DNA from: the human T2T-CHM13v2.0 reference genome, Homo sapiens
Assembly (NCBI RefSeq): GCF_009914755.1
Contig: NC_060934.1
DNA: 64,000 bases
Reading direction: 5' to 3' (one strand)
In this document: piece after piece, positions 8,427 to 8,485 of the stretch
Layout of the letters: each line of letters starts with the position of its first letter
Position numbering within the stretch: the first letter of the stretch is position 1
Notes under the pieces: model-generated
Told to the model about the DNA's origin: nothing
The model's database searches: none
The model's input: the letters and a program-made list of their open reading frames with translations, nothing else
Made by a program: the position numbers and the translations under genes

Positions 8427-8485
8427 CCTTATGTGAATAGGACTCTGTTATTTATCATTGTCTAAGTTTATTGGGGTGGTGACAC
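8427..8485 (-). other. TIAL1: TIAL1 alternative exon in intron 10 (59 nt; VSPPQ*), poison cassette or terminal exon
   Basis: ctttcttttcacag|GTG acceptor, TAA overlapping AATAAA, weak AGG|gtgctt donor plus pyrimidine/U tract. Confidence 0.7.

What the first reader, a model, noticed from the sequence alone, without database searches (positions are those of the whole stretch)
8427..8485. Dual-fate exon in intron 10: stop codon embedded in a poly(A) signal
Seen: strong acceptor, GTG TCA CCA CCC CAA TAA A where CAATAAA supplies both stop and AATAAA, then a weak donor AGG|gtgctt followed by a U/C-rich tract. Inference: donor use gives an NMD substrate, while cleavage gives a stable 292-aa protein lacking the prion-like domain; TIA proteins bound to the U-tract would decide between them.
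Basis: partly seen in the sequence, partly recalled or inferred. Interest (0 to 1): 0.7.

Follow-up and report, generated by a model that had tools for sequence, protein, structure and literature searches.

The report
Annotated TIAL1 poison exon with hexamer
This is an already annotated 59-base optional exon of the human RNA-binding-protein gene TIAL1 that carries an early stop codon and likely sends the message to decay when TIA proteins are plentiful; its stop overlaps a poly(A)-signal hexamer, but no evidence was found here that the RNA is actually cut there.

Summary
Exon 8485-8427 (59 nt, minus strand, RefSeq-annotated) lies in TIAL1 intron 10. It adds VSPPQ then TAA (292 aa, losing the 88-aa Q/G/Y/P-rich tail), the TAA sits inside AATAAA, and the donor AGG|GTGCTT is followed by an 85% pyrimidine tract (35-68% at the 11 constitutive donors). 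Best reading: a poison cassette exon, likely activated by TIA1/TIAL1, as published for TIA pre-mRNAs; I could not confirm that this exact exon is one of the published ones. NMD would rely on the exon 11/12 junction (181 nt downstream), not the exon's own (41 nt). The poly(A) fate is unshown: AATAAA occurs 24 times in 19.7 kb of TIAL1 introns and 3 times in this one, lies 13 nt from the acceptor, and annotated models read through it. It is not excluded: the stop/hexamer overlap arose in 80 of 3646 shuffles, and the paralog TIA1 has a poison exon plus a poly(A)-read-supported site in the equivalent intron, though with almost no coverage drop. Poison exon plus intronic poly(A) escape is a described class (451 candidates). 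Ordinary; low interest.

The parts
8427..8485 (-). 59-nt cassette exon in TIAL1 intron 10 with in-frame stop (poison exon)
   Evidence: RefSeq table given with the finding; sequence and frame
8468..8470 (-). in-frame TAA; 41 nt from the exon's own donor, 181 nt from the exon 11/12 junction
8467..8472 (-). AATAAA overlapping the stop, 13 nt after the acceptor and 40 nt before the donor; use as poly(A) signal not shown
8451..8456 (-). GATAAA variant hexamer inside the exon; use not shown
8486..8520 (-). acceptor: pyrimidine tract (15 of 20) and candidate branch motifs at 8516 and 8505
8421..8429 (-). weak donor AGG|GTGCTT (6 of 9 consensus, no +4A, no +5G)
8381..8420 (-). U/C-rich tract (85% pyrimidine) in the 96-nt downstream intron; predicted TIA1/TIAL1 site, could also serve as a downstream cleavage element
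   Evidence: function inferred
8568..8578 (-). tandem AATAAAATAAA upstream of the exon; rival poly(A) signal for a composite terminal exon (304 aa)
8660..8783 (-). exon 10, last RRM3 exon, upstream constitutive exon (phase 0)
   Evidence: RefSeq table
8191..8330 (-). exon 11, start of the prion-like tail; its junction to exon 12 is the one that satisfies the 50-nt NMD rule
   Evidence: RefSeq table

Best explanation
The stretch is an annotated 59-nt cassette exon with an in-frame stop in TIAL1 intron 10 that likely works as an autoregulatory poison exon: TIA1/TIAL1 would bind the pyrimidine tract after its weak donor, recruit U1 snRNP and raise inclusion, and the included message is predicted to go to NMD through the exon 11/12 junction. 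When TIA is low the exon would be skipped and full-length 375-aa protein made. The AATAAA over the stop is most likely incidental or at most a weakly used signal. Shown: exon, frame, stop, hexamer, donor, tract, distances. Inferred: TIA binding at this tract, NMD of this isoform, little or no cleavage.
For: Sequence anatomy. The tract is more pyrimidine-rich than all 11 constitutive donors; the other annotated TIAL1 poison exon (donor 12050) has the same build, 82%, and is catalogued as an annotated poison exon. [quoted passage not shown] PMC11062102 lists TIAL1 among autoregulatory unproductive-splicing genes. The paralog TIA1 has a 109-nt poison exon with donor AGG|GTATTA and a U-tract in the equivalent intron. 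Against cleavage: 24 AATAAA in 19,669 nt of TIAL1 introns, 3 in this intron; RefSeq exons 8219-8485, 8427-8783 and 8191-8783 all extend past the hexamer; TIAL1 is absent from the differential intronic poly(A) tables of PMC5928244 where TIA1 is present.
Against: I could not confirm that this exon is a published TIA-induced exon: both Le Guiner papers are not held, the legend names 5a, 6a, 8a and 11a without assigning genes and has no 10a, and 11a may be the TIA1 exon. The unproductive-splicing catalogue of PMC10123112 has no row at these hg19 coordinates, and PMC6547761's main text does not name TIAL1. No cross-species DNA for the exon was available, so conservation is untested (one search found nothing). 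The negative 3'-end evidence is weak: the PMC5928244 file holds only differential sites, and the PMC13187750 screen would exclude this exon by design.
Confidence: 0.68

Rival explanations
1. Dual fate: the exon is sometimes a tiny terminal exon, cleaved 19-33 nt after the hexamer with the U/C tract as downstream element, giving an NMD-immune mRNA for a 292-aa three-RRM protein without the prion-like tail; TIA-recruited U1 at the donor would suppress this.
For: Canonical hexamer, one TGTA within 100 nt upstream, CA dinucleotides 19, 31 and 33 nt after it with 46-49% U downstream. Stop-in-hexamer in 80 of 3646 shuffles. Intron 10 has 3 AATAAA, reached by 6 of 1000 shuffles, although two of them are one overlapping tandem. 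TIA1 has a poison exon followed by the intron's only AATAAA and a site with 294 poly(A) reads in the equivalent intron. Poison exons are followed by annotated poly(A) sites more often than other cassettes, 64 of 814 against 261 of 11,827. The intron-5 poison exon also has AATAAA 20 nt before its weak donor. TIAR on a U-tract after a pseudo 5' splice site promotes a calcitonin terminal exon (review passage).
Against: No 3'-end record found. The terminal exon would be about 40-55 nt with the hexamer 13 nt from the acceptor, which leaves little room for both machineries (inference). Annotated models read through. At the TIA1 site coverage barely drops (tau 0.985-1.0, PolyASite 0), the TIA1 hexamer is 86 nt after the donor rather than over the stop, and the two introns show no significant similarity (23 of 200 shuffles score as well). 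None of 120 listed protein cluster representatives ends in the predicted tail (weak, as such isoforms would hide inside 90% clusters).
Confidence: 0.13
2. The exon is a low-level by-product of a short, often retained intron; the regulated event is retention of all or part of intron 10 (which also brings an in-frame stop, 304 aa), and the cassette has little role in setting TIAL1 level.
For: RefSeq lists 8191-8783, 8427-8783 and 8219-8485, i.e. three retention-type forms against one clean cassette. The flanking introns are 174 and 96 nt. The exon is missing from the PMC10123112 catalogue. 14 of 120 listed protein hits read from exon 10 into intron 10, though these may be gene-calling products on genomic or unspliced contigs.
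Against: The donor/tract build matches the TIA-responsive design and the catalogued intron-5 poison exon; TIA1 has a poison exon in the same intron.
Confidence: 0.13
3. If intron 10 has a used poly(A) site, it is the tandem AATAAAATAAA at 8578-8568, giving a composite terminal exon 10 and a 304-aa protein, not the hexamer over the stop.
For: Two overlapping hexamers with slightly richer downstream U/GU content (42-45% U, 6-7 GT/TG) than 8472 (40%, 4); the read-through stop lies upstream of them; TIA1's mapped immune-cell intronic site is also a composite type over a tandem hexamer, in another intron.
Against: No 3'-end data here either; many intronic hexamers in this gene have similar or better context.
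Confidence: 0.06

Closest known systems
TIA1/TIAR autoregulatory stop-containing alternative exons (Le Guiner 2001 and 2003, seen only as citations; PMC4385921 passages and supplement legend)
   Same: Same gene family, weak 5' splice site followed by a U-rich stretch, in-frame stop, predicted NMD.
   Different: Identity of this exon with a named published exon not established; the tract here is U/C-rich (50% U) rather than nearly pure U; the papers seen do not mention a poly(A) signal.
Poison exon with NMD escape by intronic polyadenylation (PMC13187750: VRK3, NFX1, TM2D3, DDX31; earlier HFE, CSF3R, Tau; 451 candidates including TIA1)
   Same: Stop-containing cassette that could become a terminal exon, turning a premature stop into a normal one.
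   Different: There the site lies in the downstream intron and has read support; here the hexamer is inside the exon over the stop, and no read support was found.
TIA1 intron-11 poison exon (hg38 chr2:70215125-70215233) with downstream poly(A) site
   Same: Paralog, equivalent intron after RRM3, phase 0, donor starting AGG|GT, U-tract, product would lack the Q-rich tail.
   Different: 109 nt, stop 13 codons in, hexamer 86 nt after the donor; no significant sequence similarity to the TIAL1 exon.
Calcitonin/CGRP intron enhancer (review passage in PMC9318959)
   Same: TIAR on a U-tract after a 5'-splice-site-like sequence affects a terminal exon.

Membership tests
Poison cassette exon (AS-NMD) | Alternative exon with usable acceptor and donor | tested here: met
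   AG/GT sites present; exon 8427-8485 in the RefSeq table; junction reads not seen directly
Poison cassette exon (AS-NMD) | In-frame premature stop more than 50 nt upstream of a downstream junction | tested here: met
   181 nt to the exon 11/12 junction; only 41 nt to its own junction
Poison cassette exon (AS-NMD) | Isoform rises when NMD is blocked | not testable with these tools
   No RNA-seq access; not in the PMC10123112 catalogue
Poison cassette exon (AS-NMD) | Nucleotide conservation across vertebrates | tested here: inconclusive
   No vertebrate genomes offered; single copy in human; translated-frame search found nothing; only the first 17 codons' worth of intron 10 seen conserved in 14 hits
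TIA-activated exon | Weak 5' splice site | tested here: met
   6 of 9 consensus, no +4A/+5G; U1 duplex -4.7 kcal/mol, weaker than 10 of 11 constitutive donors (a crude measure)
TIA-activated exon | U-rich stretch right after the donor | tested here: met
   85% pyrimidine at +7..+46; U alone is 50% at +7..+36, within the range of constitutive donors (up to 53%)
TIA-activated exon | TIA binding and TIA-dependent inclusion of this exon | tested here: inconclusive
   Published for TIAR pre-mRNA with primers spanning this intron, but the exon names in the legend cannot be assigned; figures not held
NMD escape by intronic polyadenylation | Poly(A) hexamer downstream of or at the stop | tested here: met
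   AATAAA 8472-8467
NMD escape by intronic polyadenylation | Mapped cleavage site with poly(A) reads | tested here: inconclusive
   TIAL1 absent from two supplementary lists, but one holds differential sites only and the other excludes this exon by its filters; the GTEx poly(A) catalogue could not be opened
NMD escape by intronic polyadenylation | Excess of upstream over downstream junction reads and coverage drop | not testable with these tools
   No read data

The most novel reading that the evidence does not exclude
TIAL1 poison exons are built so that one U-rich tract is both the TIA site for U1 recruitment and the downstream element of a poly(A) site whose hexamer sits just before the weak donor (40 nt here, 20 nt in the intron-5 exon). 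TIA level would then choose among skipping, NMD and an NMD-immune message for a three-RRM TIAR lacking its prion-like tail, with a parallel arrangement in the same intron of TIA1: a family-wide source of a tail-less, possibly dominant-negative protein.
Probability: 0.12. Interest if true: 0.5.

Novelty: already known. Interest (0 to 1): 0.17.

Why it matters
As a poison exon it is one more piece of the known feedback that keeps TIA protein levels steady, and it is already annotated. If cleavage at the overlapping hexamer were real and regulated, cells could make an endogenous TIAR with all three RNA-binding domains but no prion-like tail. Delta-Q forms fail to activate the TIA-dependent exons, so such a protein could compete with full-length TIA in splicing and stress-granule assembly (inference). 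That would be a useful new example, within a class already described.

Tried and rejected
Homology of the exon or intron 10 to TIA1: no blastn hit, local alignment not above shuffles (23 of 200 and 118 of 200). Other human copies: 1 match, itself. Protein evidence for the 292-aa tail: 0 of the 120 listed hits, of 298 found; uninformative because of clustering. Search with a 41-aa non-coding frame over the exon end and tract, to see conservation: no candidate. RNA structure hiding the branch point or donor: z = 0.88 and 0.09, rejected; PMC11162794 main text does not name TIAL1. Pfam scan added nothing for the tail. Absence of TIAL1 from the 451-event list was rejected as evidence, because the stop is 41 nt from the exon end, the junctions are shared with other exons, and the hexamer is inside the exon. 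Literature searches gave no paper on a poly(A) site at this exon; subscription papers and author manuscripts are not searched. Not held: both Le Guiner papers, Ni 2007, Meyer 2018, Aznarez 2008. Earlier scan findings were not available.

Full report
Observation. On the minus strand, intron 10 of TIAL1 is 329 nt (8659-8331). It holds an acceptor at 8486, a 59-nt exon 8485-8427 and a donor AGG|GTGCTT. Exon 10 ends in phase 0, so the exon reads VSPPQ then TAA, giving 292 aa against 375. The lost 88 aa are rich in Q, G, P and Y with 2 charged residues; a review assigns exons 8-10 to RRM3 and exons 11-12 to the prion-like domain (PMC9318959, passages). TAA (8470-8468) lies inside AATAAA (8472-8467). 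The exon is in the RefSeq table supplied with the finding, and the intron is single-copy in the genome.

Splice-site anatomy. The donor matches 6 of 9 consensus positions and lacks +4A and +5G; the 40 nt after it are 85% pyrimidine, against 35-68% for the 11 constitutive donors and 82% for the annotated intron-5 alternative donor at 12050. By U content alone it is not exceptional (50%, constitutive up to 53%). The acceptor is ordinary for this gene (15 of 20 pyrimidines; range 12-17). Flanking introns are 174 and 96 nt. The stop is 41 nt from the exon's own junction, under the 50-nt rule, but 181 nt from the exon 11/12 junction, so NMD is predicted. No significant RNA structure was found.

Is the hexamer more than chance? 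TIAL1 introns hold 24 AATAAA in 19,669 nt; 24 of 479 intronic TAA sit in one; 1118 of 19,031 59-nt windows contain one; intron 10 has three. In dinucleotide shuffles of the exon, 429 of 5000 contain AATAAA, and in 80 of the 3646 with an in-frame stop the first stop lies in it. So the overlap is about a 2% event per exon, noticed after the fact. The hexamer starts 13 nt after the acceptor; CA dinucleotides lie 6, 19, 31 and 33 nt after it, the last three with 46-49% U downstream. The layout permits cleavage but would make a terminal exon of about 40-55 nt. RefSeq exons 8219-8485, 8427-8783 and 8191-8783 all run past the hexamer, and the end at 8219 is neither a donor nor preceded by a hexamer in 50 nt.

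What is in print. PMC4385921 (passages) reports that TIA1 or TIAR, but not delta-Q versions, activate rarely used exons with premature stops on both pre-mRNAs, citing Le Guiner 2001; PMC6289441 repeats this (passages), and PMC11062102 lists TIAL1 as autoregulated by unproductive splicing, citing Le Guiner 2003 (passages). One TIAR primer pair spans this intron. The supplement legend names exons 5a, 6a, 8a and 11a without assigning them to a gene and has no 10a. The Le Guiner papers are not held, so I cannot say that this exon is one of theirs. PMC10123112's supplement lists the TIAL1 intron-5 poison exon (12425-12050, 29 of 77 places seen) and has no row at the intron-10 coordinates. PMC6547761's main text does not name TIAL1.

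3'-end evidence. PMC5928244's readable supplement (12 sheets, about 2,790 rows of differential sites, not the 4,927-site atlas) has TIA1 4 times and TIAL1 0 times. That TIA1 site maps to another intron, over a tandem hexamer after the exon equivalent to TIAL1 exon 6. TIAL1 is not in the list, but its filters would drop this exon, so that absence says nothing. TIA1 is in the list: a 109-nt poison exon in the 876-nt intron equivalent to TIAL1 intron 10, donor AGG|GTATTA with a U-tract, the intron's only AATAAA 86 nt after the donor and a site with 294 poly(A) reads; PolyASite support is 0 and coverage barely drops (tau 0.985-1.0). The two introns are not significantly alike. This raises the prior for some cleavage in TIAL1 and also suggests that it would be minor. 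The GTEx poly(A) catalogue (PMC10227441 supplement) could not be opened.

Other points for the novel reading. The intron-5 poison exon has AATAAA at 12075, 20 nt before its weak donor and U-tract, and alternative exon 23695-23554 has one at 23599; of 6 annotated alternative exon forms tested (5 loci), 4 contain AATAAA, with shuffle rates of 79, 202, 351 and 163 per 1000, and 2 do not. These exons are A-rich, so this is suggestive at most. Protein databases gave no representative ending in the predicted tail (0 of 120 listed, of 298 found) and 14 that read into intron 10; clustering makes the first uninformative. Conservation of the exon could not be tested.

Mechanism. Most likely (0.68) high TIA1/TIAL1 binds the tract, recruits U1 through U1-C (PMC2964331, passage), the exon is included and the message is degraded; low TIA gives skipping. 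Rivals: regulated dual fate (0.13), by-product of intron retention (0.13), cleavage at the upstream tandem hexamer (0.06).

Verdict. Real, annotated feature; poison-exon reading supported by anatomy and family precedent; poly(A) fate unshown and, if real, a new example of a described class. Novelty: already known. Interest 0.17.

Noticed in passing
window 12050-12117 and 12050-12425 (-): The intron-5 poison exon also carries AATAAA (12075), 20 nt before its weak donor CAT|GTATGC and 27 nt before a U-tract: better textbook poly(A) spacing than the intron-10 exon. Both forms have in-frame stops (134 and 135 aa).
   Followed up: partly
window 12425-12375 and 12155-12121 (-); L004-L005 (TIA1, C2:70237161-70236876): Two intron-5 segments are similar to the TIA1 poison-exon region (75% over 89 nt; 92% over 36 nt), so that poison exon predates the TIA1/TIAL1 split, unlike the intron-10 exon, which shows no similarity.
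   Followed up: partly
L003, TIA1 intron after the RRM3 exon (C2:70227113-70226238): 109-nt poison exon with weak donor and U-tract, then the intron's only AATAAA and a site with 294 poly(A) reads listed in PMC13187750; would give a TIA1 without its Q-rich tail.
   Followed up: yes
window 8578-8568 and 8143-8134 (-): Tandem overlapping AATAAA pairs in intron 10 and at the start of intron 11; either could be an intronic poly(A) signal. No data seen.
   Followed up: partly
window 8219-8485 (-): An annotated exon ends at 8219 inside exon 11, with no donor and no hexamer upstream; probably an incomplete model end.
   Followed up: partly
window 23554-23695 (-): Alternative intron-1 exon with AATAAA at 23599, 40 nt before its donor, followed by a 53% U stretch.
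   Followed up: no
window 8659-8606 (-): The first 17 codons' worth of intron 10 are conserved in 14 database proteins that read through (9-15 of 17 residues identical to human), including horse and narwhal entries, which suggests a conserved intron start.
   Followed up: partly
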